From Isurus oxyrinchus (lineage: Eukaryota), in contig JANJGN010000071.1 of assembly GCA_026770705.1 (NCBI GenBank), positions 868,001-932,000 on the forward strand: a DNA stretch of 64,000 bases, given 5' to 3'. Each line of letters opens with the position of its first letter. Position 1 is the stretch's first letter. The notes below the pieces were generated by a model, which made no database searches, had not been told where the DNA came from, and saw only the letters and a list, made by a program, of their open reading frames with translations. Below, piece after piece: positions 645 to 60,004 of the stretch. The position numbers and the translations under genes were made by a program.

Positions 645-1160
645 TCACTGATTTCAGTTCTGGGTCCAGCAGCTTAGGAAGGATATATTGTCCTTGGAGG
701 GGCTGCTGTGCAGAGTCACCAGAACGATCCCGGGGCTGAAAGGGTTAAATCCCGAGGACAGGTTGCACAGACCAGGCTTGTGTTCCCTCGAGTCTCGAAG
801 ATTAAGGGGTGATCTAATCGAGGGGTTTAAGATGATTAAAGGCTTTGTTACGGGCAATAGAGAGAAACTATTTCCTCTGATGGGGTTGAGGTGAGGAGGG
901 TTCAGAACAAGGGGGCAGAACATTAACATTGGAGCCAGGCCGTTCAGGGGGTGATGTCAGGAAGCACTTCTTCACACAAAGCGGGGGTGGAAATCTGGAA
1001 CTCACTCCCCCAGAAAAAGCTGTCGAGACTGGGAGGGGTCAATTGTAAATTTCAAAACTGAGATTGGGAGATGTTTGTTGGGTCGGGGGGTTAAGGGTTA
1101 CAGAACCGAGGCGGGTGGATGGGGTTAAGATACAGATCGGACGTGATCCAATCAAATGTT
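645..1160 (+). mobile_element. CR1-like LINE 3' end (ORF2 C-terminus and 3' tail)
   Basis: ORF 688-894 RTIPGLKGL...RLHRPGLCSLESRRLRGDLIEGFKMIKG is the typical CR1 ORF2 C-terminal motif. Confidence 0.8.
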
Positions 1161-2229
1161 AGGACGGTGAGTCTCAGGGAGGCTGGCCCAACCCCAGACG
1201 CAGCCGTCTCTGTGACCTGCTTCAACCCTGTGAGTCAGCAATGACAACATGAGTTGATGTTAGCCTGATATGTAGTGCATGGAGGGATATTACTCTCCAG
1301 GGTGTGTGTGCATCACAGTGCTCATTCACATGTGTTCCATGTGCACCTACATCAGCTGTGTAGACATACAAGCCTCAATGCTGCATCCGGGGAATGTGCC
1401 ATGTCTCACACCTTAGCTGCAGCACGACCCTTCCCTTGGAGCTCTGTGTGCTCGAGACATATTTTGTTATTTTTTCCTGCCGTCTCTGTGTCCCCCGACC
1501 CGGGAGTGAAAATCCGGCCTTAACTTCCACTTTCTAGTGTCTGAGACAAGAGGCAATGAGTGAGTGGGCTGACGGTCAGGATTAATGCTGTTAATCTGTG
1601 TTTGAGGGGCTGTGAATTCTCGGGGGACTAGTTACTCTCTGAGCTGCAGCTTCCAAATCCTTATTTGATGCCGTGCATGTGGGGTTGGAAGATTTTTTTT
1701 AAAACCACAGGCAGTTCACAGAAACCCACAGGAAACCCACAGAGAGACAGTCACTGGGATACACACTCACTCCTTGTGGTTTCACCTTTTAACCACATCC
1801 TGTCTGTGTGGCTTAAATGTTAAACACAGTGGCCAGACTCAAGGAGGTTTCACTCTGTNNNNNNNNNNNNNNNNNNNNNNNNNNNNNNNNNNNNNNNNNN
1901 NNNNNNNNNNNNNNNNNNNNNNNNNNNNNNNNNNNNNNNNNNNNNNNNNNNNNNNNNNNNNNNNNNNNNNNNNNNNNNNNNNNNNNNNNNNNNNNNNNNN
2001 NNNNNNNNNNNNNNNNNNNNNNNNNNNNNNNNNNNNNNNNNNNNNNNNNNNNNNNNNNNNNNNNNNNNNNNNNNNNNNNNNNNNNNNNNNNNNNNNNNNN
2101 NNNNNNNNNNCAGACAGACACAAACACACACATTCACACACACACACACATTCACTCACACACACACATTCACTCACACACTCACTCACACAAACACACA
2201 CACACACAAAGACAATATCCCAATGACAA

Positions 2230-2990
2230 CAAACTGCGATTAAGAGCTTCCTACAACTTAACTAAGAGACCAAAGACATATTGAACTGTCTAAAAGCGAC
2301 CTGTTTTTCAAAGAAATACAAGATTGTACACAGATCAAAAATGGCTGACACAAGTCACCTGATTGCTGATACTGTGAAGTTGATCACTTCTCTGGAAAGG
2401 TTCAAATGAATTGCACTGCAGACCTGTTGCATGGAAGTTCACGCCTGGGGTGTGTCAGGGTCCACTTCAAATAGAGACACTCTTAAAAGGAAGGCATTAC
2501 AATGTAAAGTGCTGGACTTTGATCAGCTGTAGTTCAATCAAAACATTGGGAACTGCTCACCAAGCGGATAATCATCAACCATTCAAAACCCCCTGTGGAG
2601 GATACAATACCCCCGTCTCCTGTTGACTTATATCTTGAAATGCATCAAAGGTTTCAGAGATGCAAAGATAAAAAAATGGGAATACTTGGTCTATAACAAT
2701 GAATGCAAAACATGCTGATCGAATTGACTTCAGGGATATACAGACAGGAGTTTAACAAATGGTTCTGCCAAGCAGATATAAGAGAAAGGAGGGGAAAAAG
2801 AAATATGGCAGTCTTCCACAAACACTGCTGGAAAAGAGCAGAAATGATTTCTCCCTCTCTCTCTCTCTGTCTGAAGCTAACAGAATGTCTTCAACAATGT
2901 GCAAGTCTGAGCCAGATAAAATACAGGAATCTACAGAAAACCAACTAATTTAAAACAGCTTCAAACTTCACAGCCTACGCTGTAGTTCAA
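2230..2990. repeat. ~750-bp unclassified interspersed repeat; other copies at ~47755-48550 and ~50533-51170
   Basis: Direct similarity by eye (e.g. aaaatggctgacacaagtcacctgattgctgatactg; gcaaaacatgctgatcgaatt). Confidence 0.7.
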
Positions 2991-3185
2991 GCAAACAACT
3001 CTTTTAATTTTTTATTGGACTCTATAATTATNNNNNNNNNNNNNNNNNNNNNNNNNNNNNNNNNNNNNNNNNNNNNNNNNNNNNNNNNNNNNNNNNNNNN
3101 NNNNNNNNNNNNNNNNNNNNNNNNNNNNNNNNNNNNNNNNNNNNNNNNNNNNNNNNNNNNNNNNNNNNNNNNNNNNNNNNNNNNN

Positions 3186-3430
3186 CAGCATTCCCTCAGT
3201 GCCCACCCTCTGACAGTGCAGCACTCCCTGAGCATTGACCCTTTGAGAGTGCAGCACTCCTTCAGTATTGACCCTCTGGGAGTGCAGCACTCCCTCAGTA
3301 CCGACCCTCTGGAAGTGCAGCACTCCCTCAGTGCTAACCCTCCAACAGTGCAGCACTCTCTCAGTACTGACCCTCTGACAGTGCAGCACTCCCTCAGTAC
3401 TGACCCTCCAACAGTGCAGCACTCCCTCAC
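3186..3430. repeat. 33-bp SINE-derived minisatellite (cagtactgaccctccgacagtgcagcactccct)
   Basis: Tandem 33-bp units visible. Same unit at ~5492-5605, 15590-15840, 17848-18270, 20920-21205, 33120-33415, 42655-43240, 51775-51930 and 54035-54120. Confidence 0.9.
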
Positions 3431-3496
3431 TGGGAAGAGTCCGTCCGCATTTTAAGCTGAAACCTTGAGACGGTCTCAAAATCCCAACCTTCCATC

Positions 3497-4205
3497 TCAG
3501 AGAGAGAGAGTGCGTTTATGTGAGAGAGAGAGAAAATGTATGTGTGAGAGACTGAGAGTGTGTATGTGTGAGAGAGCAAAAGAGAGGTAGAGTTTGTGTG
3601 TGTGAGAGAGAGAGTGTGTGTGAGAGAAAGAGAACGTCTGTGAGAGTGAGAGAGAATTTATGTGTGAGAGAGAAAGATAGAGAGAATGTGCGTGTGAGAT
3701 AGTGTGTGTGCAAAAGAGAGTGTGTGTCTGTGAGAGAGTGTTTGTGTATGTGAGAGTGTGTGTGTGAGATCGTGTGTGTGTGTGTGTTTGAGAAAGAGGG
3801 TGTGTGTGTTTGAGAGAGGGAGTGTGCGAGAAAGAGATGGTGTGAGTGTTTGAGGGAGGGGGAGATTGTGTGTTTGAGACAGGGAGTGAGAGAGAACATG
3901 TGTGTGAGAGAGAGAGTGTGTGTGTATGTGTGTGTGTGAAAGAGAAAGTATTTGTGCAAAACAGTGTGTGTTTGAGAGTATGTGCGCATGTGTGAGTGTG
4001 TGTGTGTGTGTGTGCTAATGTTTGTGTCTGTGTGTGTGTGAGGGTTTGTGTGTGAGTGAGTTTGTGCATTGTGTGCGTGTGTGTGTGTGCATGTGTGTGC
4101 GTGAAAGAGTGTTTGTGCAAAAGAGTGTGTGTTTGAGAGTATGTGTGCATGTGTGAGTGTGTGTGTGTGCTAGTGTTTGTGTGTGCGTGTGTGTGTGCTT
4201 GTCTG
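3497..4205. repeat. Compound (GA)n/(GT)n microsatellite
   Basis: Low-complexity dinucleotide tract. Confidence 0.95.
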
Positions 4206-4862
4206 NNNNNNNNNNNNNNNNNNNNNNNNNNNNNNNNNNNNNNNNNNNNNNNNNNNNNNNNNNNNNNNNNNNNNNNNNNNNNNNNNNNNNNNNNNNNNNN
4301 NNNNNNNNNNNNNNNNNNNNNNNNNNNNNNNNNNNNNNNNNNNNNNNNNNNNNNNNACAGTTACACACGTTGCTAGGGACCACTTTTCCGCCTCTCTGTC
4401 AGACTGTGTGTATCTGACAGCAGGTCAGGCAGAAATAGTCCAGAATGTGCTGTGGTTTTGTAGCATTGAAACAACGACAGGAACTAAATGAGTGCTGCAC
4501 CAAATAAAGACATGGAGTTACCACACCAAAAAACCACGTGACTTCCCCAGTTTCACATCTCCCTCAAACACAGAAAAACTGGGTTAACACTGACCCTCCT
4601 CCCAGAGCCAGTTCACCTCGTGTCCGATGCAGTCAGGAGAGGAAGATCATCTCTCCTCCGATCCTGGTAAACTGAACATTTCCAGAATTAGATCAGCTCC
4701 CTGAAGTGTCTCCAGTTAGACATTCATCTGACAGGATTGACTCTACAACCCTGGGGACTCATTCTCCTGTAAGTAAAACACTTGCTGCTCCTGTCAAATC
4801 TCTTCTGTACAGCATGGTCTCTGGATGTCCCAGAACACTTTACAAGTGAGTTCACCCTTTTT

Positions 4863-5088
4863 TCGAAGTGTGGTTACTGTCGTAATGTAGGAAACGCAGC
4901 AGCCAATTAGCGCACAGCAAGCTCCCACAAACAGCAATGTGATCACCTGTTTTTGGTGATGTTGGTTGAGGGATAAATATTGGTCCCAGGACACCGGGGA
5001 GATCTCCCCCCTGCTCTTCCTCCAAATAGTGGCTGTGGGATCTTTCACACCCGCCCGAGAGGGCAGACGGGGGACTCGGTTTAGTGTC
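4863..5088 (-). mobile_element. Deu-domain SINE (SacSINE1/AmnSINE1-like); duplicate at ~53044-53269
   Basis: Reverse complement of the Deu central domain seen at 15850-16150 (aaagatcccacagccactatttggaggaagagcagggg...ccggtgtcctgggaccaatatttatccctc). Confidence 0.75.
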
Positions 5089-5664
5089 TAATATTGGACT
5101 AATCTCCAGGCGAGGTTGGCTGGATGGATTATTGACAAGGTCCATTCACCCTGTAAAGAGTTTCTCTGGTTTGAAATACCCGATCAAACATCGAGTTCTG
5201 TGTCTAAACCTTGTGTTGAAAAGACACCTTTCCAGCTCTTCACCTGCCATTAGCTTGTTGAGTCTTCACACGCTCCGTCTGTCTGTGACCAACCCCTCTT
5301 AGCTCATCCTTTCCTTGTCGTACATCGAGCTGTTCATCCTGACGGGTTCCCTCCTTCCCAGTAACACTCCATCTCCGACATCAAACTAACTCCCAACACG
5401 TTGATGAATTGTATGGATTCCAGCGTCAGTTGGTTCTGTCTGAGGCTGTTTCTCTGATCGGGGACCGAGCTGTTCTGAATGGACATTGTGTTCAGTACTG
5501 ATCCTCCGACAGTGCAGCACTCCCTCAGTACTTACCCTCTGACAGTGCAGCACGCCCTCAGTACTGATCCTCTGACAGTGCAGCACTCCCTCACCACTCC
5601 CTCACTGGGGAGAATCTACCTGGGTTTTGAGCTGAAATCATGAGCAGGTCTTAAAACATTCTGT

Positions 5665-6800
5665 ATCAGAGAGAGAGAGAGTGTCTGAGAGAGAGAGAGA
5701 GACAGAGAGACTATGTGAGAGAGAAAAAGAGATAGAGAGTGTGCATGTGTGAGGGAGAGTGTTTGTATATGAGAGAGAGAGTGTGCATGTGAGAATGTGT
5801 GAGAGAGAGTGTGTGGGAGAGAGAGTGTGTTTGTGACAGAGAGTGTGTGTGTGTGTGCGAGGGAGAGAAAGAGAGAGACAGCAGAAGATCGAGATGAAGA
5901 GAAATGTTAAATGTTTGAGAGAGAGAGAATGTGTGTGTCTGAGAGAGAGAGTGTGTGTGTGTGAGAGAGAGTGTGTGCTTGACAGAAAGAGAGATTGTGT
6001 TAGTTTTAGGGAAAGTGTGTGAGTGTGTGAGAGAGTGTTTGTGTCTGAGAGAGAGAATGTATTTGAGGGAGGGAGACAGAGAGAATGTGTGTGTGAGAGA
6101 GAGAGAGATAGAGCAGAAGAGTGTGATAGAGAGAGATTGTGAGTGTTAGAGAGAGAATGTGTGTGAGAGAGAGAGAGAGAGATAGAGCAGAAGAGTGTGA
6201 TAGAGAGAGATTGTGAGTGTTAGAGAGAGAATGTGTGTTTGTGAGAGAGAGAGATAGAGCAGAAGAGTGCGATAGAGAGAGATTGTGTTTGTTAGAGAGA
6301 GAATGTGTGTGTGTGAGAGAGAGATAGAGCAGAAGAGTGCGATAGAGAGAGATTGTGAATGTTAGAGAGAGAATGTGTGTGTGTGAGACAGAGAGAGATA
6401 GAGCAGAAAGAAGAGTGTGATAGAGAGAGATTGTGTTTGTTAGAGAGAGAATGTGTGTGTGTGAGAGAGAGAGAGATAGAGCAGAGGAGTGTGATAGAGA
6501 GAGATTGTGAGTGTTAGAGAGAGAATGTATGTTTGTGAGAGAGAGAGAGATAGAGCAGTAGAGTGTGATAGAGAGAGATTGTGAGTGTTAGAGAGAGAAT
6601 GTGTGTGTGTGAGAGAGAGAGAGAGAGCAGAAGAGTGTGATAGATAGAGATTGTGAGTGTTAGAGAGAGAATGTGTGTGTGTGAGAGAGAGATAGAGCAG
6701 AAGAGTGCGATAGAGAGAGATTGTGAGTGTTGGAGAGAGAATGTGTGTGAGAGAGAGAGAGAGATAGAGCAGAAGAGTGCGATAGATAGATATTGTGAGG
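5665..6800. repeat. GA/GT microsatellite with a higher-order ~65-72-bp repeat from ~6080
   Basis: Recurring gagatagagcagaagagtgtgatagagagagattgtgagtgttagagagagaatgtgtg unit. Confidence 0.9.
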
Positions 6801-7066: not shown

Positions 7067-7112
7067 ATGGGAGAGGTCGGTCTGATATTGATCTTCATCA
7101 GCTTGCTGCAAG
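7067..7112 (+). pseudogene. Signal-peptide exon of a divergent Siglec-like gene (MGEVGLILIFISLLQ/G)
   Basis: Acceptor AG at 7051-7052, ATG 7067, hydrophobic run, phase-1 donor GT at 7113; ends SLLQ like the gene A leader. Confidence 0.75.
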
Positions 7113-7244
7113 GTACAAATTCATTACTGATCGGAACTCAGGGAATTGGATTCTTTCCTGGAGTGAGGAAGTGAACATTTAATTTTAGAGAACAGGGTTA
7201 GTGATCACACAGAGAGTGAGTGATTAGCGAGTCAGAGAATATAG

Positions 7245-7345
7245 CAAAAGCAAAAGCCTCATACGGACTCGAAACACCAACTCTGTTTCTCTCTCCACAG
7301 ATGCTGTCAGACCTGCTGAGTTTTTCCAGCATTTTCTGTTTGTGC
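7245..7345 (+). mobile_element. HE1/HER1-like SINE/LINE 3' tail (reverse copy at ~31697-31830)
   Basis: aactctgtttctctctccacagatgctgtcagacctgctgagtttttccagcattttctgttt, recognised as the shark HE1/HER1-type tail. Confidence 0.65.
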
Positions 7346-7429
7346 ATCAGAGAGCTTGTTTCAATAGGAATGACAGTGCATTTATATAGCACCTTTAATG
7401 CAGTAAAACATCCTTATTGCTTCACAGGA

Positions 7430-7900
7430 TTCCCCCACAAGGGGTAACATCCCCTCAGCATCGACCCTGTCAAACCCCCCACCACCTCAGAATCTTATAT
7501 GTTTCAATAAGATCACCTCTCATTCTTCTAAACTCCAATGGATACAGGGCCCAACCTGCTCAACATTTCCTCATAAGACAAACCCCCTTCATCCCAGGAA
7601 TCAGCCCAGTGATCCTCCTCTGAGCTGCCTCCAATGCAGAGTCTATCCCTCCCTAAGTAAGGAGACCAGAACTCTACACACTGCTCCTGATACAATCTCA
7701 CCAACGCCCTGTACAGTTGTAGCAAGATTCCCCTCCTTTTATACTCCATCCCTTTGCAATAAAGGCCAACATTCCACTTGCCTTCCTCATTCCGTGCTGT
7801 TCCTGAATGCTGACTTTCTGTGATTCATGTACAAGGACACCCAGATCCCTCTGTACCGCATTCTGCTGCCTCTCTCCATTGAAGTAATATTCTGCTTTTT
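7430..7900 (-). mobile_element. CR1-like LINE 3' fragment
   Basis: Minus ORF 7528-7749 EYKRRGILLQLYRALVR...EFWSPYL...LSYEEMLSRLG. Confidence 0.8.
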
Positions 7901-7932
7901 GATGTCCTGTCTCTTCCCTTGTTGCCTTTCAG

Positions 7933-8223
7933 GAGTGACGTCAGAGGGATGGTCTATGAAGGCGCTGCCTCGGAGGGCCATCAGCAGCTCTTGTGTGGTT
8001 ATTCCGTGTAGCTTTGACTTTCCTTCCCACTCTTACACAGCACTGCACGGAGCTTGGTATAAATATTGGTATAGATGGAAATATACCATCACATACACCA
8101 AAGATCCCAATTATGGGATGGCCACATTCGTGGGACGTGCTAAAATAATCAGTGACTTGGAAGGGAAGAATTGTTCAGTGAGGATTGACAGTCTCAGAGC
8201 TGAAGACAGTGACGTGTATTACA
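7933..8223 (+). pseudogene. Truncated Siglec V-set exon (divergent subfamily)
   Basis: Acceptor tttcAG at 7931-7932, phase 1. Encodes GVTSEGW...CVVIPCSFDFP...HGAWY...GRAKIISDLEGKNCSVRIDSLRAEDSDVYY, then runs into TE sequence and TAA at 8232-8234; no F-strand Arg, G strand or donor. Confidence 0.85.
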
Positions 8224-8621
8224 CCCAATTCTAAATCTTTTCACCAATTAGTCGTCCTCATGAAGATGTGTTTTCAGCTGATGCCGTGGGTAATAATGCA
8301 CAGGTTTAAGTTTAACTCCAGAGTAAGGGCCCCGGGAGAGTCCATCGCAACCTATACAGTGAAGTGGAAGCAGGTGACTGAGCACTGGGACCTCGGAGAC
8401 ACACTCAATGACATGTTGCGGGGCCGATTGGTTTGTGTCGTTCACCCCAACGCCATTCAGAGCCGTTTACTCGCAGAAGCCGACATCGATTTGAAGCGCA
8501 CCATGGAAATAGCGCCAGGCATGGAAAGTGCTGGGAGAGACTGGCGGGATTTACAGGATGTACAACATGGCACCAGTCCTCAGCTGGGACAGGAACCAAC
8601 CACCGGGCGTGAGGCTCAGAC

Positions 8622-8654
<33 letters not shown>

Positions 8655-9300
8655 CCGCCAAGCGAGAGACAGTCTCTGCCGCTCCAGAAACTAAAAGGCT
8701 TCGTGGGAGTATTTCAGCAGCAACTCCGAAGTTGGCCTGTTCTCGATGTGGGGGGCATTGAGCTCGTACCGGACACCTGCAGGTTCAAGGGAGCAGAATG
8801 CCATCACTGCCACAAGAAAGGGGCGGGTAATAAAGCAATGCAGGGTGAAATCGAGACAGCCCATCAGACAGTGCACCAACATGATGGAAGTGAATAATAT
8901 CACAGAGCCTGAAGCTGCTGATACCGATGTCTATTCCCTGTCCAATGTCACAGTGGTAAAAACTGAACCTATAACCATCACAACCCAAGTGAATGGGCAG
9001 CCACTAGTAATGGGGCAGATACGGGAGCCTCAGACACAGTGGTGGAAGAGCCCACATTTAAACAGCTAAATGAAGGAACCCAGACGCTGAATTTAGAGCC
9101 AACAATGGATCAGCTGAAGACACACACTGGAGAATCCATACAGGGAAAGGACCTCATCCCAGTACCTGTGTCCTACAGGCAGCAGACAGCCCAGCTTCCA
9201 GTGATCATAGCGACAGGTGAGGGCCCTAGTCTTCTGGGCCGAGACTGGTTCCAGAAAACCAAGCTCAGCTGCTCTGAAATGTTTCACTGGAGGAGTTGCT
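8224..9300 (+). mobile_element. Degenerate Gypsy-type LTR retrotransposon gag/protease relic
   Basis: RFKFNSRVRAPGESIATY...LNDMLRGRLVC...IQSRLLAE (gag); CSRCGGH and CHHCHKKG zinc knuckles; VNGQPLVM..DTGASDTVV aspartic protease; GPSLLGRDW; frameshifted. Confidence 0.85.
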
Positions 9301-9589
9301 GAGTTGCTGGGGGAATATGAGAGTGTATCTCGGAATGAGTTTGAAGAATTGAAGCATCCTCACAGGCTGCAAGTGTCCCTCAGGTCAGAGTTGGTTCCAC
9401 TGGAAAATCCTGAAGAGAAAGAAAGCGAATTCTGTGCCGCTCTGAGCAAACTGAAGAAACAGTTGGCAGGGAAGACCCAACCATGTCCAATGTTCCAGGA
9501 GGAAGGCAAGAGATACAAGGAAGAGACTGAAGAGCTGAAGATTCAGCTGAATGAAACCAAAGAGGCAGTTACAGTATCACAACAATTTT

Positions 9590-11475: not shown

Positions 11476-12559
11476 GAGACAGTCAGAGAGAGAGCCTCCA
11501 GGAGATAGAGAGCGATAGAGAGATTGAGAGACAGACAGAGACTGAGAGAGGGAGAAGAGAGAAGGAGAGTGAGAGAGAGAGAGAACAAGTGTGAAAGATG
11601 GTGGAAGGGAAGAGTGGGGAGGTGTTGGCCTGATGGTATTTCCACTGGACCAGTAATCCAGAGACCCAGTGTAATGCTCCTGGGACCCTGGTTAGAATCC
11701 CACCACAGCAGTTGGTGGAATTTGAACTCAATAAAAACCTGGAATTAAAAGTCCGATGATGACCAGGAAACCATTGCCGATTCTTGTATTTGGGTCACAA
11801 ATGCCCTTTAGGGAGGGAAATCTGCTGTCCTTACCTGGTCTGGCCTACATGTGACTCCAGACCCACAGCAATGTGGTTCACTTTTAAAAAGTGGCCTCTG
11901 AACAAGGGCAATTAGGGTTGGGCAATAAATGCTGGCCTAGGCAGTGATGTCCACATCACATGAAAGAATGAAATAAAAGGACAGAGAGGGACAGACAGAG
12001 TCGAGAGACACCCAGAATGAAAAAAACACAGTAAACACTGGAAAATAAACATTCTGGTCTGATCTGGTCTTGTATACCTTCAAATGGAACACCAGTAAAA
12101 CAGGGAAATAAGAGTACTGGGCCAAACTGTTAGAGAGGGGCACATTTAGAGAGAGAGAGAGAGAGAAAGAGGGAGACACTGAAAGAGATAAGGACAAGGA
12201 AAGAAAGAGTGAGAGAGAGAGACAGACAGAGACACACAAAGAAGTAGAAAGAAAGTGATAGAGATGAAGCAGGAGAGAATGAGGAGAAAGATAGATAGAT
12301 AGAGAGAGAGGATGGTAGAGAAAGAGAACGAGAGGAAAAAAGACAAAGGCAGAATGTGATGGAACACTGAATCCTTGTCTATGCGTTTTGAAATCCAGCC
12401 CAGAACTATCATTGGAAGATTCAGCGAGTGTCCAGTACAGGGGACCCAGCCCAACCTTCTCATCCTGACCTTCCCAGTGGGGCTGAAGAGGGCAGAGAGG
12501 AAACCTTCCTCTGTTATTCTGTTGTCGAATAAACACAACAATTCTGGAACTCTGCCCTT

Positions 12560-13155
12560 TCTATCTCACGGATTAGAATATAAGGGGGCAGAGGTCATGC
12601 TTCAGTCTACATAAAGCCCTGGCTAGACCACACCTGGAGTCACTGTGAGACATTCTGGGCCCCACACCTTAGGAAGGATATATTGACCTCGGAGGGAGAG
12701 CAGTGTCAGTTTACCAGAATGAGACCGGGACTCCAAGGGTTAAATCACAAGGAGAGATTAAACACAAACTCGGCTTGTATTCCCTGGAAGTTAGAATGTT
12801 AAGCAGGAGATTTGATGAAAGTTCGCATGATATTAAGGGGAACAGATCGGGGGCGATAAAGAGAAACCATTTCCCCTGGTTGGGGGGAGTCTGGGACTCG
12901 GGGTCAGAGCCTAAAAAGGAATTAAATTAGGAAGTACAAAGGGTGGGAGAAATTTGGAACTCTCTTCCCCAAACAGGAACTGATGCACGATCAAGTTGTT
13001 CATTTTAAACCTGTGAGACTGATAGATTTTTGTTATCCAAAGGTATTAAAGGAGATGGGACAAAGGAATATGGGGCTAGTTTGCAGATCAGCCATGAACT
13101 CTTTGAATGGTGGAGCAGGCTCGAGGGGCCAAATGGCCTCCTCCTACCCTCATGT
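12560..13155 (+). mobile_element. CR1-like LINE 3' end
   Basis: GLEYKGAEVMLQ, ctagaccacacctggag, LGLYSLE-type motifs and tail ggagcaggctcgaggggccaaatggcct. Confidence 0.75.
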
Positions 13156-13544
13156 AATAGAAACTTACCTGTCAGAAGCCAGTTTATGTTGATGTGAGTC
13201 TGAGTCGATGACTGAACCCAGTTGGTGACTTGTTCCATACAAAGCAAGAACGTTCATGCCCTTCAATGTTCCTGGATAAACCATTAACAAAGCTGGTGAC
13301 AGACAGTCTCCACATGGTAAACACTGACCGATCAACACATGACATGGCTGTTAACCCCTAAACCTCAGCGTAAATCAGTTCCCCCTCGAGGCCCCTTGTC
13401 CGAAATAAAAGCAACGCACACAATTTGTAAAATAGTAAGTGTCTGGCAGGAAGGAGGAGCAATGAGAGGAGTAAGGGGTTAGGGGGCATGCGCTTCACCT
13501 GATTTGCCGACATAAGAACCAGCCTCTATGTTTTTGCTATGTTG

Positions 13545-13760
13545 TGTTGCATCAATATGAACACATATTTGCACAAGGTGAAGGGCGTTGCGGAGGGACT
13601 GATAGTTCTCGGCGCCAGACAGTCAATGTCCCAGTGACCTTACTGCTGGTCCCAGGCCAGTGGGACAGGGAACATCGACACTGCAATATCCAGAAATGGG
13701 TGTGATACCACACAGCTACCCACCCGCGGCTGTCCCCTTCAAGTGTTTCAGGTATAAGAG
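13545..13760 (+). promoter_or_regulatory. Putative promoter of the prepropeptide pseudogene
   Basis: C/EBP-like TTGCATCAA (~13547) and TTTGCACAA (13568-13576), GGCGCC+AGAC (13611-13620, Smad/BMP-RE-like), TATAAG (13753-13758) about 75 bp before the ATG. Confidence 0.4.
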
Positions 13761-14109
13761 CAGGAAGCTCCTCTAGTTACAAACCAAAGCATCAAAGCAG
13801 AGCCAGAAGATCAGAAGAGACAGGCAGAGATGGGAAGCTCCCAGATGAAATGGCGACTTGTCTTGTTCACTCTGACTTTGCTGCTCTCCCTGCAGCTGAG
13901 TCACTTCTTCTCCTTGTCGAGGTTAAGCTAAGAGATGTCCCTCTGGGTGAGGTGTTTCTTGCACATGACTCTACGTCTACCACCCAGATAGACTGGTCTC
14001 TTCCGCAGTTTGATAAAATTATGCTCGTGCCTTTAATATTGTCGCCCTCTATGAATTTAACATCATTTCCTTCTGTCATTTCCCCTGAAATTCTCATTCT
14101 TGTTTTCAA

Positions 14110-15530
14110 TCCCTCCTCAGCGACTCCCTATCTCTGTAACCTCCTCCAGCCCGTACAACCCTCCCTATCTCTGTAAACTCCTCCAGCCCCTACAACCCTC
14201 CCTATCTCTGTAACCTCCACCAGGCCTTACAACCCTCCCTATCTCTGTAACCTCCTCTAGCCCCTACACCCCTCCCTATCTCTGTAACCTCCTCCAGCCC
14301 CTACAACCCTCCCTATCTCTGTAACTTCCTCCAGCCCCTACAACCCTCCCTATCTCTGTAACTTCCTCCAGCCCCTACAACCCTCCCTATCTCTGTAACC
14401 TCCTCCAGCCCGTACAACCTCCCTATCTCTATAACCTCCTCCAGCCCCTACAACCCTCCCTATCTCTGTAACCTCCTCCAGCCCCTACAACCCTCCCTAT
14501 CTCTGTAACCTCCTCCAACCCCTACAACCCTCCCTATCTCTGTAACATCCTACAGTCTCTACAACCCACCCTATCTCTGTAACCTCCTCCCGTCCCTATA
14601 ACCCTCCCTATCTCTGTAACCTCCTCCAGACCCGACAACCCTCCCTATCTATGTAACCTCCTACAGTCCCCACAACACTCCCTATCTCTGTAACCTCCCC
14701 CAGGCCCCACAACCCTCACGATCACTGTAACCTCCTCCAGACCCTACAACCCTCCCTATCTCTGTAACCTGCTCCAGACCCTACAACCCTCCCTATCTCT
14801 GTAACCTGCTCCAGACCCTACAACCCTCCCTATCTCTGTAACCTGCTCCAGACCCTACAACCCTCCCTATCTCTGTAAAATCCTCCAGGCCCCACAACCC
14901 TCACAATCACTGTAACCTCCTCCAGCCCCTACAATCCTCCTGAACTCTATAACCTCCTCTCCAAACTATAACTCTCCCTATCTCTGTAACCTACTGTGGC
15001 CCCTACAGCAGTGTCTATTTTGGTAACCTCCTCCAGCCTCTACAACCCTCCCTACATCTGTAACCTCCTCCAGCCCCCACAACCCCCCCATCTCTTTAAT
15101 CTCCTACAGCCCCTACTCACCTCCCTATCTCTGTAACCTCCTCCAGCCCCCACAACCCCCCCATCTCTTTAACCTCCTACAGCCCCTACACACCTCCCTA
15201 CCTCTGTAACCTCCTCCAGCCCCCACAACTCCCCCATCTCTGTAACCTCCTACAGCCTCTACAACCCTCCCTATCTCTGTAACTTCCTACAGCCCTTACA
15301 ACCCTCCCTATCTCTGTAACCTCCTACAGCCTCTACAGCCCTCCCTATTTCTGTAACCTCCTCCAGCCCCTGCAACCCTCCCTATCTCTGTAACCTCCTA
15401 CAGCCTCTACAACCCTCCCTATCTCTGTAACTTCCTACAGCCCTTACAACCCTCCCTTTCTCTGTAACCTCCTACAGCCTCTACAGCCCTCCCTATCTCT
15501 GTAACCTCCTCCAGCCCCCACAACCCTACC
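14110..15530. repeat. 37-bp minisatellite (cctcctccagcccctacaaccctccctatctctgtaa), about 38 units, L2-derived
   Basis: 37-bp period measured between tgtaa anchors; the same unit is expanded inside the L2 copy at ~58800-59100. Confidence 0.95.
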
Positions 15531-15534
15531 TAAA

Positions 15535-16150
15535 TCACTGGTCTGAGTCTCACTCCAGGGAATTCAGTCCCATAATGTAGATCAACGCTCCGTGCTGAGG
15601 GAGTGCTGCACTCTCAGAGGGTCAGTAGTGTGGAAGTGTTGCACTATTGGAGGTACAGTACTGAGGGAGTGCTATACTGTCGGAGGTCAGTACTGAGGGA
15701 GTGCTGCTGTGTCGAAGGGTTAGTACTGAAATAGAGCTGCACTGACGGAGGGACAGTACTGAGGGAGCGCAGCACTATCGAAGGGTTAGTACTGAGGGAG
15801 TGCTGCAGTGTCAAAGGGTTAGTACTGAGGGAGCACAACAATGTTGAATGAGACATTAAACCGAGTCCCCCGTCTGCCCTCTCGGGCGGGTGTGAAAGAT
15901 CCCACAGCCACTATTTGGAGGAAGAGCAGGGGGTGTTCTCCCCGGTGTCCTGGGACCAATATTTATCCCTCACCCAACATCACCAAAAACAGATGATCTA
16001 GGCCATGATCACATTGCTATTTGTGGGATCTTGCTGTGCACAAATCAGCTGCCACATTTCCTACAGTGTGAGTGCACTTCAAAAACATCCTTCAGTGGCT
16101 GTGAAATGCTTTGGGATGTGGTGAAAGGCGTTAGAGAAATGCAAGTCTGT
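15535..16150 (+). mobile_element. Deu-domain SINE with an internally amplified 33-mer
   Basis: 5' part carries the 33-bp units, followed by the Deu central domain and the tail gtgaaaggcgttagagaaatgcaagtct. Confidence 0.75.
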
Positions 16151-18411
16151 CTTCCTCCCTCTCTCTCTCCTGTACCTCTCTCTCTCTCTCTCCCTCTCCC
16201 TCAATCCTCCTCTCACTTTCTCCCTGATAAATTCTTTCTTTTTGCAGGTTGACACTGCTTTAGGTTCTTCGACGATTGAGAAATCTGTGGATTCCCCGGA
16301 CACGGTAGGTGGAAATTCATTCCTTATTTTAAGGTTCCTCCCTGCTCGTTTCTTCCACAGAAAGTTTTCTGATTTCAAGCTGATTTCAGTGGCAGTCTGT
16401 CTCGGTTATACTCAGGAGGCATGTTTGAAATCGAGCCCCCCGCCCCCCCCCCGCCCAACTTTTTTTGCAAAGCTGGGAAGAGGCAATTCCAAGGAAGTGA
16501 ACATATCCCCACAGGAATTTTAAATGTAACCCACGCCGGGAATAGTGAGAGGGAGACTGATCCAGCCTGGGAGTGGGTTAAAGAGAGGCTGGGAGTCGAG
16601 AGTCGGAGAGAGGGATGGAATGGGGGAGGGAGGGATTGGAAGAGAGAGACAGAGAGTGGGACGGGGAGGGGTGAAAGGGAAAGAACATAGGTGGGAGAGA
16701 GTGACAGAGGGAGAAATTAAAGAGATGCAGAGTGAGGGAAAGTGAAAAGAGAAGAGAGATTGTCCAAGAGAGAGAAATTAACAGGAAAGGGAGAGTTACA
16801 GAGTCAGCGAAAGGTACAAAAATAGTGTGAGAGAGAGGGAGAGATACAGAGTGGGAGAAGGAGACAGGGGAGAGAGAGGGAGAGAGACAGGAAAAGGGAG
16901 AGAGGAGAGAAAGATTGGGAGAGAGGGCAATTGAGAGGAAGAGTAGGAGAGAGAGAGACAGGGAGAGGAGGAGTGGATGAGAGGAAGAGAGAGAGAGATA
17001 TGGAGCAGGAGAACACCTCCTCCGGTCCCGATGTTCCTCCAAAATCTCTGACATTACTGCATCTCCCGGGTCCCCCTGATTCCCAACGCTCCACCATTGG
17101 TGGCCGTGCCTTCAGCTGCCTGGGGCCCTGAGCTCCGGAATACCCTCCCTTAACCTCTCTGCCTCTCTCTCTCTCTCTCCTTTAAGACGCTCCTTAAAAA
17201 CTGACATCTTTGACCAAGCTTTTGGTCACCTATCCCTAATATCTCCATATGTGACTCAGTGTTAGACTTCTCTCTGATTTACGCTCCGGTAATGTGGGCT
17301 GGGACATTTTGCAATATCAGAGGCGCTGTGTAAATGCAAGTTGTGAGTGTTATGTGGAAGGGAGACCCCAGGCGGCAGTCAGTGCCAGAGACTGGAGTCA
17401 TTGTGTGCAGACCGTATCTAATCTCTCCGAATGCACAATCGGTTTGACTGTCAGCCAAAGCACTTTTGATATTTGATCCTTCTAACTGTTTATAACCAGG
17501 CCTACATCAAACACCGAGAGGCTGGTTAATCAACAGACACCTTAGAGGATCAAGTGAAAGACAAAGAGGACTTGCATTTCTCTAGCGCCTTCCAACACAT
17601 CAGGACGTCCCAAAGTGTTTCGCAGACAATCAAGTGCTTTTTTTCTTTCATGTGAGGTCACTGATGTACTGTGGGAAAAGAATCAGCCATTGGCGCACAG
17701 TAAGATCCCACAGACAGCAGCATGATAATGACCAGCGCGCTCCCAGTACTTGCACTGCAAGTGTCAGTTCAGGATGTGTGCTCGATTCTCTGCAACTCTC
17801 AGCTCTGAGTTAAAAGGACCACCAGGCATAATTGAGAAATTACCGAGCTGTCGGAGGGTCAGTACCGGCGGGGGGGCAGGACAGTCGGAGGGTCAGTACT
17901 GAGGGGGTGCTGCATTGTCAGACGGTCAGTCTTGGAGTGCTGCACTGTCAGAGGGTCAGTACCGGCGGGGGACTGCACAGTCGGAGGGTCAGTACTGAGG
18001 GGGTGCTGCATTGTCAGACGGTCAGTACTGAGGGAGTGCTGCACTGTCAGAGGGTCAGGGCTAAGGGAGTGCTGCACTGATGGAGGGTCAGTACTGAGTG
18101 AGTGCTGCACTGTCAGAGGGTCAGTGCTAAGGGAGTGCTGCACTGTTGGAGGGTCAGTGCTAAGGAAGTGCTGCACTGTACAGAGGGAGTGTGAGACTGA
18201 CAGAGGGTCACTATTGAGGATGTGCTGCACAGTCGGGGGGGTCAGTACTGAGGGAGCACTGCACTGCCATAGGTGGTTTCTTTCAGATGACATGAGAGAG
18301 AGGGTTAAACCCACTGAGACAAGACTGACACTAATGAGGCTGCTCAATAATTTAACCCTATCAGTGCCAGTAAATAATGTGAGGATGTCTTCTGTTTCCA
18401 TTTCTCTGTAG

Positions 18412-18660
18412 GGTAAACAGAACGTGCTGATTACTGAGCCCCGGAACACAACCAGAGACACAACTAGTGAGGGGGAGACCCCAGCTCCCCGGGGTCTCTC
18501 TGAAGGTGCATTGGGAGGCGATGCTGGACATTGGCACATCGACAATCCCAACGGCCTTCTCTATGCCAATCCCCAAGTATTGAGGATGTCCAGTGATGAT
18601 GGGTCTGTCCACAGGGAAGAGGAGACGGAATACGCACAGATCAGGTTCGAGCATAACTGA
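18412..18660 (+). CDS. Orphan Siglec terminal cytoplasmic exon copy 1 (LLYANP + TEYAQI)
   Basis: Acceptor tgtAG 18410-18411, open 249 nt to TGA, paralogous to 43513-43761. No TM exon found upstream in the window, so it may be a pseudo-exon. Confidence 0.75.
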   Translation, partial: GKQNVLITEPRNTTRDTTSEGETPAPRGLSEGALGGDAGHWHIDNPNGLLYANPQVLRMSSDDGSVHREEETEYAQIRFEHN

Positions 18661-18856
18661 ATGAGAAATGGGGAGTGGGAGTGAGGAGGTGTGAGGGTGG
18701 GGGTAGTGATTGAGATTCCTGGGAACAGGAAACAACCCACTGGGGGAGAGGGGGAGAGAGGGAGGAAGGGATGCGATTGGGCTGCGGTTGCTGTGGTTTG
18801 GAATGAAATGCTTCTCCAGAGAGGACTGGATGCTGAGCCACTGGGATAGAGATTCA

Positions 18857-18899
<43 letters not shown>

Positions 18900-19239
18900 T
18901 CTTTGTCTTTCTTTCTGTGTCTGTCACTCATTCTCTATCTCCAGCTCCTCCTTTAAGATGCCCGTTAATAACTGACTTTGTTGACTCAGCTGTTGGTCTC
19001 CTGTCCCTTATATCTCCTCATGTGCCTCAGAGTCAGGTGAAGATGTGACTAACAATTCCCGGATGAGCCTTGGGACATTTTGCTACATTAAAGGTCCTAT
19101 ATAAATGCAAGTAGTTGCAGTAAGTCTGATCTGCTTCGATTAACAATGGAACCACAAAGGCTCCTTCGACAGGGCGTGTGTGCAGGAGGATCCCAATAAA
19201 TACATTGAGCTGTGAGATTTTTAATTCTTACATCGAATG

Positions 19240-19690
19240 TGGCTGTCACTGGTGATGCCAGCATTAATGCCCATCCCTAATTGCCCTTGAGAAGGTGGTG
19301 GTGATCAGCCTTCTTGACCCGCTGCAGTCCATGTGGTGTAGGTACACCCACAGTGCTGTTAGGGAGGGAGTTCCAGGATTTTGACCCAGTGACAGTGAAG
19401 GAACGATGATATATTTCCAAGTCAGGATGGTGAGTGGCTTGGAGGGGAACTTCCAGGTGGTGGTGTTCCCATGTGTCTGCTGCCCTTGTCCTTCTAGATG
19501 GTAGAGCTCGTGGGTTTGGAAGGTGCTGTTGAAGGAGCCTTGCTGAGTTGCTGCAGTGCATCTTGTAGATGGTACACACACTGCTTCCACTGTGTGTTCG
19601 TTGTGGAGGGAGTGAATGTTTAATGTGGTGGATGGGGTGTAGATCAATCGGGCTGCTTTGTCCTGGATGGTGTCAAGCTTCTTGATTCTG
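19240..19690 (-). mobile_element. CR1-type LINE 3' end
   Basis: Reverse complement of the LINE 3' region at ~45590-45990 (CTIYKMHCSNS.RLL.QHLPNPR). Confidence 0.8.
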
Positions 19691-19818
19691 TGCTTTGTAT
19701 AGAACTGATTTAAAGAGACAGTCCCAGTCGTTGGTCTAAGATTACAGTGGGCTCTGTGTCTGTGCTACACTGACTCTCTGCTATATGATAACCACAGTGT
19801 GATATTTTGTTATTACAG

Positions 19819-19900
19819 GAGAAAGACAGCGATGGAGGAGAGAGTTTCAGGGACCAGTGACATTGTATTGACCCCCAGTCCACTCTCTGTGAAACACCAG
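19819..19900 (+). CDS. Orphan first cytoplasmic exon (RKTAMEERVSGTSDIVLTPSPLSVKHQ)
   Basis: AG/GT bounded, 82 nt, paralogue of 42357-42438; splices in frame to 21349. Confidence 0.75.
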
Positions 19901-20035
19901 GTACAGGAGCTGTTTACACTCACTCCAAAGCTTCTATCTCAGTGTGTAGACAACACATGTCCCAGATTCCCAGCCCAGTTACCCACTGATTTGTACCTGT
20001 GGAGTCAGCAATGGTTCAGTATCATGCTGTCTCTC

Positions 20036-20792
20036 TGTTATGACACAGCAACTGGTAAAGGCTGTTGTTTAAAATCCCAGAGGGAAACTTTAAACAACTG
20101 TCATAACCTATATTTCCCAGTGGAATGTTTGAGATGCAGCTCTAAATTCAGGAATAAGACCATCAGTTCTTGAGATGGGTTTATATCAAACTACATGAGA
20201 CATTTATTAATTTTCACAAGTTAATCATATGCACATGGCTACAAACTAGTATTATCATAACTATTTAACAAATTCCCAAACTAACGTCCTCTAAGACAAC
20301 CCATAGACTTTAAGCAGATTCCAAGCGAAGCATTTTCACCTCAGAAATTCCAAATGAGGTTCCTTTCACTTTGGTTCCTTTGCAGACAGGTGTAGGCTTA
20401 CAGCTGCTTTGATGTTACAAGCCTCTGCTCTGCACACACAAAACTGCTCAAGTTATACCCAGTGCTTCTCTTTGAATGTAAATTCTCATTGTATCATCAG
20501 GACCTTTGATCTCCATCTCTTCTAACTATAAATCCCGTTTCATAGTATCAATTTTATTAGTAATATAAACATTGATTGGTTTAAGAATTCACTCCCAGGC
20601 TTTGAATCCTCCTTTTAAAAATGCAATATGCCTCTTTACCTCTTTGTTTACATCTCAAAACTACTATACATAAAAGTACCCAGACCGGTTGTCTTTAATC
20701 CAATTAAAACACACACACACACACCCACAGACTAAACCTCTGTTTAAAAAGACAATTTCCAATTACAATACATACATTAATAGATTCATAAC
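20036..20792. mobile_element. Solo-LTR-like element (family also at 24407-25232, 44055-44948, ~49196-50532)
   Basis: Starts tgttatgacacagc...ggtaaaggctg...aaatcccagagggaaact, shared with the other copies; absent at the paralogous position after 42438. Confidence 0.6.
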
Positions 20793-21348
20793 GCTCAGTC
20801 TCTGACCCTTCATCTCTCTCTCTCTCTCTCATCCTCTCTCTGATTACAAGATTCATGTTATTGAGCCTCACACCAGGCACCTGAGTGCAGAATCCAAGCC
20901 GACACTCGCCAGAGCCATTACCGAGGGAGTGCAAGACTGACAGAGGGTCAGTACTGAGGGAGTGCTGCACTGTCAGAGGGTCAGTACTGAGGGAGTGCTG
21001 CACTGTCAGAGGGTCAGTACTGAGGAAGACCTGTACTGTCGGAGGGTCAGTACTGAGGGAGTGCTGCACTGCTGGAGGGTCAGTACTGAGGGAGCGCTGC
21101 ACTGTCGGAGGGTCAGTACTGAGGGAGTGCTGCACTGTTGGATGGTCAGCATTGAGGAAGTGCTGCACTATCGAAGGGTCAGTACTGAGGGAGCACTGCA
21201 CTGCCATAGGTGTTTTCTTTCATAAGACATGTGAGAGAGGGTTAAACCCATTGACCCACGACTGACACTAACGAGGCTGCAGAATATTTTAACCCTATCA
21301 GTGCCAGTAAATGATGTGAGGATGCCTTCTGTTTCCATTTCTCTGTAG

Positions 21349-21597
21349 GGTAAACAGAACGTGCTGATTACTGAGCCCCGGAACACAACCAGAGACACAA
21401 CTAGCGAGGGGGAGACCCCAGCTCCCCGGGGTGTCTCTGAATGTGCAGTGGGAGGCGATGCTGGACATGGGAACCCTGACAATCCCGACGAGCTTCTCTA
21501 CGCCAATCCCCAAGTCTTCAGGGTGCCCAGTGGTGATGGGTCTGTCCACAGGGAAGAGCAGACGGAATACGCACAGATCAGATTCAAGAGAAACTGA
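21349..21597 (+). CDS. Orphan Siglec terminal cytoplasmic exon copy 2 (LLYANP + TEYAQI)
   Basis: Acceptor AG 21347-21348, open 249 nt to TGA; AATAAA at ~22205. Confidence 0.75.
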   Translation, partial: GKQNVLITEPRNTTRDTTSEGETPAPRGVSECAVGGDAGHGNPDNPDELLYANPQVFRVPSGDGSVHREEQTEYAQIRFKRN

Positions 21598-22769
21598 GCG
21601 TGAAAAAGGCAGAGGTGGTCAGGAGGTTTGTGGATGGTGGCAGGGATGAAGATTCTTGGGAACATGAGACAACCCACTGGGGGAGAGGGGGAGAGAGGGA
21701 GGAAGGGACTGAATGGGTCTGTGGTTGGTGTGGTTTGGAATGAAATGTTTCCCCAGTGACGACTTGATGCTGAGTCATTGGGGACAGAGATTCAGTNNNN
21801 NNNNNNNNNNNNNNNNNNNNNNNNNNNNNNNNNNNNNNNNNNNNNNNNNNNNNNNNNNNNNNNNNNNNNNNNNNNNNNNNNNNNNNNNNNNNNNNNNNNN
21901 NNNNNNNNNNNNNNNNNNNNNNNNNNNNNNNNNNNNNNNNNNNNNNNNNNNNNNNNNNNNNNNNNNNNNNNNNNNNATTAACTGGCTTTGTGAAATCAGC
22001 TTTTTGTCACCTGTCCCTAATACCTCATTATGTGTCTCTGAGATGGATTTATATGTAGGTAACAATCCCCTGAAGAGATTGGGGACAGTTTGTTACATTA
22101 AGTGTGCCATATAAATGCAAGTTGTTGCAGGAAAGTTGATTTGCCTCGATTCAGAATGGTAATTCGGAGGGTCCATCGACAGGGCGTGTGTGCAACAGCC
22201 TCGCAATAAATGCATTGCACGGCAACAACTAAGCATGTCCTTTGATGCTGATGCATCCCAGTACTGCTGTGTGGACACATCACAACCGAGGGACTGCCTG
22301 ACTGCGTGCAGCCAACATGGCCGAATAGTAATTAGCAGAAATGTGATGTCACTGAACTTTGTTGACATTTCAGAATGTGCTTTCTGAATTCTGCAACTTG
22401 TTTATTCTGTGATAGATTACAAGAAGCCTTTGCATTTTCTATAATATTACATTTATTGTCACAAGGGATTGAAATGCCCAGACACCACCACCTGGAAGTT
22501 CACCTCCAAGACACACATCATCCTGATTTTGAAATATATCGCCATTCCTTCACTGCCACTTGGTCAAAATCTTGGACTTCCTTCTCTAACTGCATTGTGG
22601 GTGTACCTACACCACATGGAGTGCAGAGGTTCAGGAAGGCAGCTCACCACCACCTTCTCAAGGTAATTAGGGATGGGCCATAAATGCTGGCCTAGCCAGT
22701 GATGCCCACTTCCCATGGAAGAATGAATATATAAAATATAAAGTTGGAACAAATGAATGAAGTTATAGC

Positions 22770-59960: not shown

Positions 59961-60004
59961 GTCACTTGCATGTTTATTCTGCAGCTTTAATATTTTAAGA
60001 AGGT

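What the first reader, a model, noticed from the sequence alone, without database searches (positions are those of the whole stretch)
13830..16500. Hidden hepcidin-like prepropeptide pseudogene inside the Siglec cluster
Not visible in the ORF track. Three segments join in phase 0 to give MGSSQMKWRLVLFTLTLLLSLQ|VDTALGSSTIEKSVDSPDT|WQSVSVILRRHV*. This is a signal peptide with a plausible A-L-G cleavage site, a short acidic prodomain in a 57-nt exon, an 85-nt intron, and a basic site that becomes RRHVR (furin RxxR) if TGA reverts to CGA. Two single-base lesions explain its death: donor GTGAGT to CTGAGT at 13896 and CGA to TGA at 16426. Known HAMP genes have three phase-0 exons with a ~60-nt middle exon and lie beside MAG/CD22 in mammals. 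Against the identification: only one Cys codon (NFFCK, in another frame past a poly-C run) follows the basic site, and exon 1 ends before the signal cleavage site. It may be a decayed hepcidin paralogue or an undescribed peptide family.
Basis: partly seen in the sequence, partly recalled or inferred. Interest (0 to 1): 0.7.

Follow-up and report, generated by a model that had tools for sequence, protein, structure and literature searches.

The report
Truncated shark hepcidin gene among Siglecs
The first two exons and likely promoter of a shark hepcidin (iron-hormone) gene sit among Siglec gene fragments, with a broken splice site and no exon for the active peptide in this window, so it is likely a dead copy of a known gene rather than a new peptide family.

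Summary
Segments 1 and 2 are exons 1 and 2 of a shark hepcidin (HAMP): 45 of 50 residues match basking shark hepcidin, and five more named shark hepcidins align without gaps. Exon 1 is longer than proposed (13830-13922, 31 codons). The 'dead donor' at 13896 is an ordinary Leu codon. The real defect is at the exon 1 end, which reads AGG|TTAAGC; the adjacent GT gives a frameshift and early stop. The proposed third exon (16390-16428, 'RRHV*') is not homologous to hepcidin exon 3. The 8-cysteine exon is undetectable in the whole 64 kb, although a planted decayed exon was found in 19 of 20 trials at 20% divergence. Within about 2 kb after exon 2, gap-free sequence becomes a Siglec last intron and terminal exon, which points to a rearrangement. 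The window's only GGCGCC (the mammalian BMP-response motif) lies 219 nt upstream of the ATG. Verdict: a 3'-truncated hepcidin pseudogene, a new member of a known kind. Whether the animal keeps an intact copy could not be tested.

The parts
13611..13616 (+). GGCGCC, candidate BMP/SMAD response element of the hepcidin promoter, 219 nt upstream of the ATG (function inferred)
   Evidence: Only GGCGCC in the 64 kb; 49 of 2000 dinucleotide shuffles of the 300 nt upstream contain one; GGCGCC is the motif of human BMP-RE1 and BMP-RE2 (PMC3879105, PMC6127602; passages)
13569..13576 (+). C/EBP-like site (consensus recalled); weak
   Evidence: 23 + 21 such matches on the two strands of the window, so not distinctive
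13753..13758 (+). TATA-like box, 77 nt upstream of the ATG
   Evidence: 10 + 7 matches in the window; 27 of 2000 shuffles at that position, with a pattern chosen after seeing the site
13830..13922 (+). Hepcidin exon 1 coding part, 31 codons: predicted signal peptide plus start of the prodomain
   Evidence: 29 of 31 residues identical to basking shark P0002; all six intact shark hepcidins have K31 at the boundary; a Heptranchias isoform with a different 5' exon joins at the same K|I point
13920..13928 (+). Defective exon 1 donor: AGG|TTAAGC in phase 0. Using the GT at 13922 shifts the frame (stop at codon 36); unspliced reading stops at 13929
   Evidence: no AG between 16150 and 16304 would rescue a phase-2 donor (offsets 0, 1, 0)
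13923..16247 (+). Intron 1, holding a 37-bp minisatellite (14124-15532), a 33-bp array (15595-15833) and a dispersed repeat (15848-16065); ends in a pyrimidine tract and CAG
16248..16304 (+). Hepcidin exon 2, 57 nt, prodomain, phase 0/0, intact AG and GT
   Evidence: 16 of 19 residues identical to P0002; three basking shark isoforms all diverge right after this exon; rank 1 of 428 bins
16305..17847 (+). Start of intron 2, then microsatellite and dispersed repeats; likely holds the rearrangement junction.
   Evidence: Unique and repeat map; no N between 13500 and 21796; no exon 3 hit
17848..18660 (+). 33-bp array and 3' end of a Siglec last intron, then an orphan Siglec terminal exon (18412-18660; 82 open codons; LLYANP and TEYAQI tyrosine motifs; phase-0 acceptor)
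   Evidence: 84-92% identical to the last introns at 20943-21348 and 43394-43512, and 85% to the terminal exon at 43514-43761
7068..8231 (+). Upstream neighbour: Siglec leader exon and a V-set exon that breaks off before its end, at the edge of a retrotransposon-like relic
   Evidence: Pfam V-set E 7e-5 and Ig_CD22 E 0.011; aspartyl protease relic at 8967-9299, E 0.007; the V-set stops before the Y-x-F-R-x-E motif found in 3 of the 5 V-set exons

Best explanation
This is the 5' part of a shark hepcidin gene (exon 1, intron 1, exon 2 and a likely promoter) with no GT at the homologous exon 1 boundary and no mature-peptide exon in the window, and it is likely a dead spare copy produced by rearrangement within the Siglec cluster. 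Shown: the identity of exons 1-2, the defective junction, the absence of exon 3 from the 64 kb, and the switch to Siglec last-intron and terminal-exon sequence within about 2 kb after exon 2. Inferred: unequal recombination between the abundant dispersed repeats (the 33-bp array is one candidate) removed exon 3 and joined hepcidin intron 2 to a Siglec 3' end; the copy then decayed (donor, K31R, L39S, L8W); any transcript would give only a 33-35-residue signal-peptide fragment; an intact paralogue would lie elsewhere in the genome. The intact gene would work like other hepcidins: liver preprohormone, cleavage after R-x-[K/R]-R, 8-Cys peptide acting on ferroportin (established knowledge for mammals, not tested in sharks here), with BMP/SMAD input through GGCGCC.
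For: 45 of 50 residues identical to basking shark hepcidin X2, which carries Pfam Hepcidin at E 1.5e-11, above the cut-off; 20-32 of 50 to five other named shark hepcidins; grouped with the basking shark at 99/100 support. Exon 3 is absent by three methods, while a planted decayed exon 3 was found in 20/20, 20/20, 19/20 and 10/20 trials at 5, 10, 20 and 30% substitution with indels. No N gap between 13500 and 21796. Two of the 11 columns invariant in six intact proteins are changed (K31R, L39S), plus L8W; the tree puts all change on the window's branch (0.12 against 0). The neighbourhood is full of fragments: truncated V-set, two orphan terminal exons, a large duplication of about 1-6 kb at 45-54 kb. 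The catshark has two hepcidin genes on one 165-Mb contig, so duplication has a precedent.
Against: No intact copy from this organism was seen; the 'spare copy' step is untested. No second hepcidin lies in the window, and the duplicated block at 45-54 kb carries none. The assembly is a draft with 9 N gaps and many near-identical repeats, so a mis-join cannot be excluded. The decay signal is small: intact proteins also break 0-5 columns in leave-one-out tests, though over longer branches. The power test is weak for a short remnant (5' half only: 19, 10, 4 and 0 of 20). The promoter motifs look intact. The ancestral donor sequence is inferred from proteins; no orthologous DNA could be fetched.
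Confidence: 0.65

Rival explanations
1. This is the species' only hepcidin locus and it is inactivated, so this shark lineage has lost the iron hormone.
For: No other copy in 64 kb of the cluster; closest to the single basking shark locus found; all inferred change is on this branch; no lamniform other than the basking shark appeared among 9 hits of 316 candidates. One paper reports hepcidin absent from chicken (PMC4453067, passage), though the same sentence wrongly extends this to fish.
Against: Absence from protein sets is weak: nurse shark hepcidin is in plasma yet had no orthologue among whale shark predicted proteins (PMC9207270, passages), and no carpet shark hepcidin was retrieved either. 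Five shark species across four orders keep intact genes. The remnant is flanked on both sides by Siglec fragments, as expected of a displaced duplicate.
Confidence: 0.15
2. The gene is intact in the animal. Exon 3 was lost in a mis-assembly or lies beyond the window behind a very long intron 2, and the donor defect is a base-call error or a rare allele.
For: Draft assembly with 9 N gaps and many repeats; open exons, good acceptor and exon 2 donor, retained GGCGCC and TATA-like box; basking shark isoforms X1 and X3 show exon 2 joined to other downstream exons.
Against: Needs two independent artefacts, plus two changes at invariant residues. Sequence is gap-free for 5.5 kb after exon 2. A >47-kb intron would have to contain same-strand Siglec genes; teleost intron 2 is 118-191 nt (PMC3325200, passage), although shark intron 1 here is already 2.3 kb.
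Confidence: 0.14
3. A functional chimeric gene: the hepcidin promoter and exons 1-2 splice in frame to the Siglec terminal exon at 18412 and give a secreted 132-residue protein with two tyrosine motifs.
For: Exon 2 donor and the 18412 acceptor are both phase 0; the coordinate join has no internal stop; the terminal exon is still open at 85% identity to its paralogue.
Against: The exon 1 donor is defective, so the signal peptide cannot be joined in frame. Cytoplasmic tyrosine motifs have no obvious role outside the cell. No such protein appeared among hits of 10-154 aa.
Confidence: 0.03
4. One reading: three exons with an 85-nt second intron, killed by two point changes, or else a new non-cysteine peptide family.
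For: A plausible acceptor at 16389 in phase 0; CAG|CTGAGT fits a donor consensus apart from +1; S-V-I-L-R loosely resembles the S-V-L-L-R of catshark exon 3 (4/10 identity).
Against: Homologues show 13896-13922 is coding. Against the closest relative the segment has 3/10 identity where exons 1-2 have 90% (binomial P about 1e-5). None of the 8 Cys is recoverable in any frame. Intact homologues all end in a normal hepcidin.
Confidence: 0.02
5. Segment 1 is a Siglec transmembrane exon and segment 2 a Siglec cytoplasmic exon.
For: It lies between a Siglec V-set exon and a Siglec terminal exon; a K-W-x-x-x-L-F-T likeness to the Siglec TM exon at 41772-41868 (tblastn E 7.3); an AG|GT in phase 2, as in that exon.
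Against: No DNA similarity to the window's TM or cytoplasmic exons; 90% identity to hepcidin instead.
Confidence: 0.01

Closest known systems
Basking shark (Cetorhinus maximus, Lamniformes) LOC144671611 isoform X2, an 88-aa hepcidin precursor with Pfam PF06446 (P0002)
   Same: Residues 1-50 are 90% identical; the same exon 1/2 and 2/3 break points; indirect sign of the same Siglec neighbourhood (isoform X1 tail matches the antisense strand of a Siglec intron in this window, 48/56 and 44/56).
   Different: The window lacks residues 51-88 (convertase site and 8-Cys peptide), has no GT at the phase-0 end of exon 1, and has W8, R31, T34, L36 and S39.
Other annotated shark hepcidins: Scyliorhinus canicula hepcidin-2-like (two genes), Mustelus asterias, Heterodontus francisci and Heptranchias perlo hepcidin-1
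   Same: Colinear 50-residue signal and pro region, 41-64% identical, 9 of 11 invariant columns kept.
   Different: All are complete, with R-x-[K/R]-R and 8 Cys.
Vertebrate HAMP (human, teleost)
   Same: Three-exon plan with the mature peptide in exon 3 (PMC3325200, passages); GGCGCC upstream (PMC3879105, PMC6127602, passages); a locus near MAG, USF2 and FFAR in mammals (PMC4453067, passages; CD22 adjacency recalled). The basking shark mature peptide matches PDB hepcidin 1m4f at E 0.028.
   Different: Longer exon 1 (93 nt against 87 in teleosts), shorter exon 2 (57 against 78), a 2.3-kb intron 1; GGCGCC further upstream than human -84/-79; no STAT consensus (recalled pattern) within 1 kb upstream; exon 3 absent.

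Membership tests
Hepcidin (HAMP) gene family, by descent | Signal and prodomain homologous to known hepcidin precursors | tested here: met
   45/50 to P0002, 20-32/50 to five others; tree support 99/100
Hepcidin (HAMP) gene family, by descent | Exon 1 (signal + start of pro) and short exon 2 (pro) joined in phase 0 | tested here: met
   93-nt and 57-nt segments match the protein alignment and isoform break points
Functional hepcidin gene | Mature peptide with 6-8 conserved cysteines (PF06446) in exon 3 | tested here: not met
   No Pfam hit in any frame tried, no Cys pattern in six frames, no tblastn, frameshift-tolerant or nhmmer hit; power control. Applies to this 64-kb window only
Functional hepcidin gene | R-x-[K/R]-R convertase site before the mature peptide | tested here: not met
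   Present in all six intact proteins; the window's RRHV is not homologous
Functional hepcidin gene | Canonical GT-AG introns giving one open frame | tested here: not met
   Exon 1 ends AGG|TTAAGC; the alternative GT gives a stop at codon 36
Hepcidin (HAMP) gene family, by descent | Proximal BMP-responsive GGCGCC and STAT3 site in the promoter | tested here: inconclusive
   GGCGCC present and unique in the window (49/2000 shuffles); no STAT consensus within 1 kb; no functional or cross-species test
Hepcidin (HAMP) gene family, by descent | Synteny with MAG/CD22-type Siglecs, USF2 and LSR | tested here: inconclusive
   V-set exons hit Ig_CD22 below cut-off (7824-8231) and above it (29910-30380); USF2 and LSR were not searched for beyond the ORF list
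Functional hepcidin gene | Liver expression and ferroportin binding | not testable with these tools
   No eukaryotic RNA or genome collection available
Siglec transmembrane or cytoplasmic exons | Similarity to the cluster's TM (41772-41868) and cytoplasmic (42357-42438) exons | tested here: not met
   No blastn match

The most novel reading that the evidence does not exclude
This remnant is the only hepcidin locus of a lamniform-type shark: Siglec-cluster rearrangement deleted the mature-peptide exon and the lineage lives without the master iron hormone, while the surviving GGCGCC shows that BMP/SMAD control of hepcidin predates the shark-bony fish split.
Probability: 0.15. Interest if true: 0.75.

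Novelty: new member of a known kind. Interest (0 to 1): 0.33.

Why it matters
As a dead spare copy it is a modest result. It places HAMP beside CD22/MAG-type Siglecs in a cartilaginous fish, fixes the boundaries of shark hepcidin exons 1 and 2, and offers a testable candidate BMP-response element, which bears on how old BMP/SMAD iron sensing is. Seven searches (listings, plus passages of three of the papers) showed no paper on shark hepcidin gene structure or pseudogenes; the library lacks most subscription journals. If it proved to be the only copy, it would be a natural hepcidin knockout in a large shark and would raise the question of how ferroportin is restrained without it.

Tried and rejected
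Pfam on 7 readings of the candidate segments, one with X at the stop: 0 families. Regex for hepcidin-type Cys patterns in six frames: none. Self-BLAST for a second copy of the promoter or exons in the window: none. Siglec TM-exon reading: rejected. Exon 3 hidden in the N gap at 21797-21976: unlikely, because the gap sits where the paralogous copy has a CT microsatellite, but not excluded. A second look-alike of the exon 3 start at 16333 (4/10 identity, wrong phase, 28-nt intron) is at chance level. An NFFCK likeness to somatostatin-type peptides (recalled) was dropped once homology was found. Rfam on 12000-22000: 0 matches. The bacterial promoter scan was irrelevant and empty. Cluster-member look-up could not be made, so cluster members stayed unchecked. 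The nurse shark supplement (PMC9207270 Table_1) was too large to read; it may hold a nurse shark hepcidin entry. Of 15 hits in the representative search, 2 were already known, 2 were fetched, and 11 unnamed lower-scoring ones were left unused because some may be human. SignalP and splice-site scoring programs were not available. The prokaryotic genome, phage and plasmid collections were not searched as they hold no shark DNA; viral and metagenome contigs stayed unchecked.
Full report
Observation. The window is a repeat-rich draft (9 N gaps) of a Siglec cluster: five V-set exons, C2-type Ig exons, one TM exon at 41772-41868, two short cytoplasmic exons and three terminal exons. The candidate segments have no second copy in the window and no Pfam hit in 7 readings.

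Identity. A search with the ORF that holds segment 1 returned 2 hits among 2 candidates, both basking shark LOC144671611, 91% over 32 residues. Isoform X2 is an 88-residue hepcidin precursor (Pfam PF06446, E 1.5e-11) whose mature part matches PDB hepcidin 1m4f (E 0.028). Further searches gave catshark (two genes; 5 hits of 12 candidates) and Heptranchias, Mustelus and Heterodontus hepcidins (9 hits of 316 candidates). The two window segments tile columns 1-31 and 32-50 without gaps: 45/50 identical to the basking shark, and 29/50, 32/50, 23/50, 26/50 and 20/49 to the others. A tree on these 50 columns joins the window to the basking shark at 99/100, so the source is probably a lamniform or close relative (inference; for the taxonomy). 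The 'undescribed family' option is closed.

Corrected exon 1. Homology continues through L-S-H-F-F-S-L-S to codon 31, so CTGAGT at 13896 is Leu-Ser, not a mutated donor. All six intact proteins have K31, and a Heptranchias isoform with another 5' exon joins at the same point. The window reads AGG|TTAAGC there. It has no GT in phase 0; the GT one base earlier shifts the frame and stops at codon 36; unspliced reading stops at 13929; no nearby acceptor rescues the frame. Either a +1 substitution in the donor or a one-base loss in codon 31 would explain this; orthologous DNA is needed to tell. The signal cleavage site probably lies near the end of exon 1 (inference from the alignment; not computed), not at A-L-G.

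The third exon. Intact proteins continue G-S-x-L-L-R-x-x-R and then 8 Cys; 18 columns are invariant. Nothing like it is in the 64 kb. tblastn's best hits are TG and CA repeats. A frameshift-tolerant alignment ranks exons 1 and 2 first of 428 bins, but the region after exon 2 only 27th at best. DNA HMMs give E 3e-15 and 9e-7 for exons 1 and 2 and 0.55 at best for exon 3, elsewhere in the window. A planted exon 3 was recovered in 20/20, 20/20, 19/20 and 10/20 trials at 5-30% substitution with indels, but a 5' half only in 19, 10, 4 and 0 of 20, so a few residual codons cannot be excluded. It is most likely intron sequence with a chance acceptor; the TGA at 16426 is not a lesion.

Surroundings and mechanism. 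There is no N between 13500 and 21796. After exon 2 come 330 nt of unique sequence, a purine microsatellite and dispersed repeats; from 17848 a 33-bp array and the 3' end of a Siglec last intron (84-92% to two paralogues); then an orphan Siglec terminal exon at 18412-18660. Upstream lies a Siglec leader and a V-set exon cut short by a retrotransposon-like relic. The simplest reading is a rearrangement between 16305 and about 18270 that removed exon 3 and most of a Siglec gene. The breakpoint cannot be pinned, since the two Siglec paralogues also differ left of their arrays. Decay is suggested, not proven: K31R and L39S hit 2 of 11 invariant columns, L8W is radical, and the tree puts 0.12 on the window branch and 0 on the basking shark; yet intact proteins break 0-5 such columns in leave-one-out tests. 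Exon 2 and the Siglec terminal exon are both phase 0 and would join in frame, but the exon 1 defect makes a functional chimera unlikely.

Promoter. The only GGCGCC in the window is at 13611, 219 nt before the ATG, with a TATA-like box at 13753; 49 of 2000 shuffles of the upstream 300 nt contain the hexamer. GGCGCC is the human BMP-RE motif, at -84/-79 for BMP-RE1 (PMC3879105 and PMC6127602; passages). No STAT consensus (recalled pattern) lies within 1 kb. This is a lead, not a tested element.

Synteny. In mammals HAMP lies near USF2, FFAR genes and MAG (PMC4453067; passages; CD22 adjacency is recalled). Basking shark isoform X1 continues after exon 2 into sequence matching the antisense strand of a Siglec intron of this window (48/56 and 44/56 residues, with an AG at the join), indirect evidence that the intact gene neighbours the same Siglec subfamily. 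USF2 and LSR were not searched for.

What stays open. Whether this animal has an intact copy. For a spare copy: two genes in the catshark, Siglec fragments on both sides, and intact genes in five species. For loss: no second copy here and no other lamniform hit. Absence from protein sets is weak evidence: nurse shark hepcidin is in plasma but had no whale shark orthologue among predicted proteins (PMC9207270; passages; its supplement could not be read). A mis-assembly would need two artefacts and is less likely, but is not excluded.

Literature seen. Passages only: PMC6795676, PMC9207270, PMC3832898, PMC4453067, PMC8773737, PMC3879105, PMC6127602, PMC3325200. Ten searches were run; none listed a paper on shark hepcidin gene structure or a hepcidin pseudogene. 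Shark hepcidins are already annotated in NCBI, so the family is known in sharks.

Verdict. A real feature and a good catch from raw sequence: a 3'-truncated hepcidin pseudogene within a shark Siglec cluster. New member of a known kind; interest 0.33. The boldest reading not excluded, lineage loss of hepcidin, has probability about 0.15 and would merit 0.75.

Noticed in passing
P0001, P0005 (basking shark LOC144671611 X3, X1); window 43954-44001 (+), 56967-57134 (-), 29712-29879 (-): Two of three predicted basking shark isoforms lack the mature-peptide exon: exon 2 joins a LINE reverse-transcriptase-like relic (X3) or the antisense strand of a Siglec intron (X1). The gene is named 'uncharacterized' although X2 is a clear hepcidin.
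   Followed up: partly
window 33529-40962: One Siglec gene carries eight tandem, 94-99% identical I-set/C2 Ig exons on a repeat unit of about 1 kb, followed by TM (41772), cytoplasmic (42357) and terminal (43513) exons: a recently elongated Siglec, or an over-expanded assembly. Several N gaps lie in the array.
   Followed up: no
window 18412-18660, 21349-21597, 43513-43761: Three copies of the Siglec terminal exon, all open for 82 codons; TEYAQI is kept in all, the ITIM-like ILYANI becomes LLYANP in the two orphan copies, which have no upstream TM exon.
   Followed up: partly
window 1-6100 against 45228-53676; 25748-30942 against 54444-61873: Segmental duplications of 83-98% identity; the second copy lacks the 6-25 kb stretch that holds the hepcidin remnant.
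   Followed up: partly
window 7068-9400: A divergent Siglec (no DNA match to the other four V-set exons) whose V-set exon is cut before the Y-x-F-R-x-E motif by a retrotransposon-like relic with an aspartyl protease domain.
   Followed up: partly
window 60861-61240, 62572-62730: V-set exon with stops and a frameshift, and a partial Ig exon: another decayed Siglec copy.
   Followed up: no
window 13830-13922, column 26 of alignment A3: The window and the basking shark share F at column 26 where the other five sharks have C, close to the likely signal-cleavage site: a possible lamniform change.
   Followed up: no
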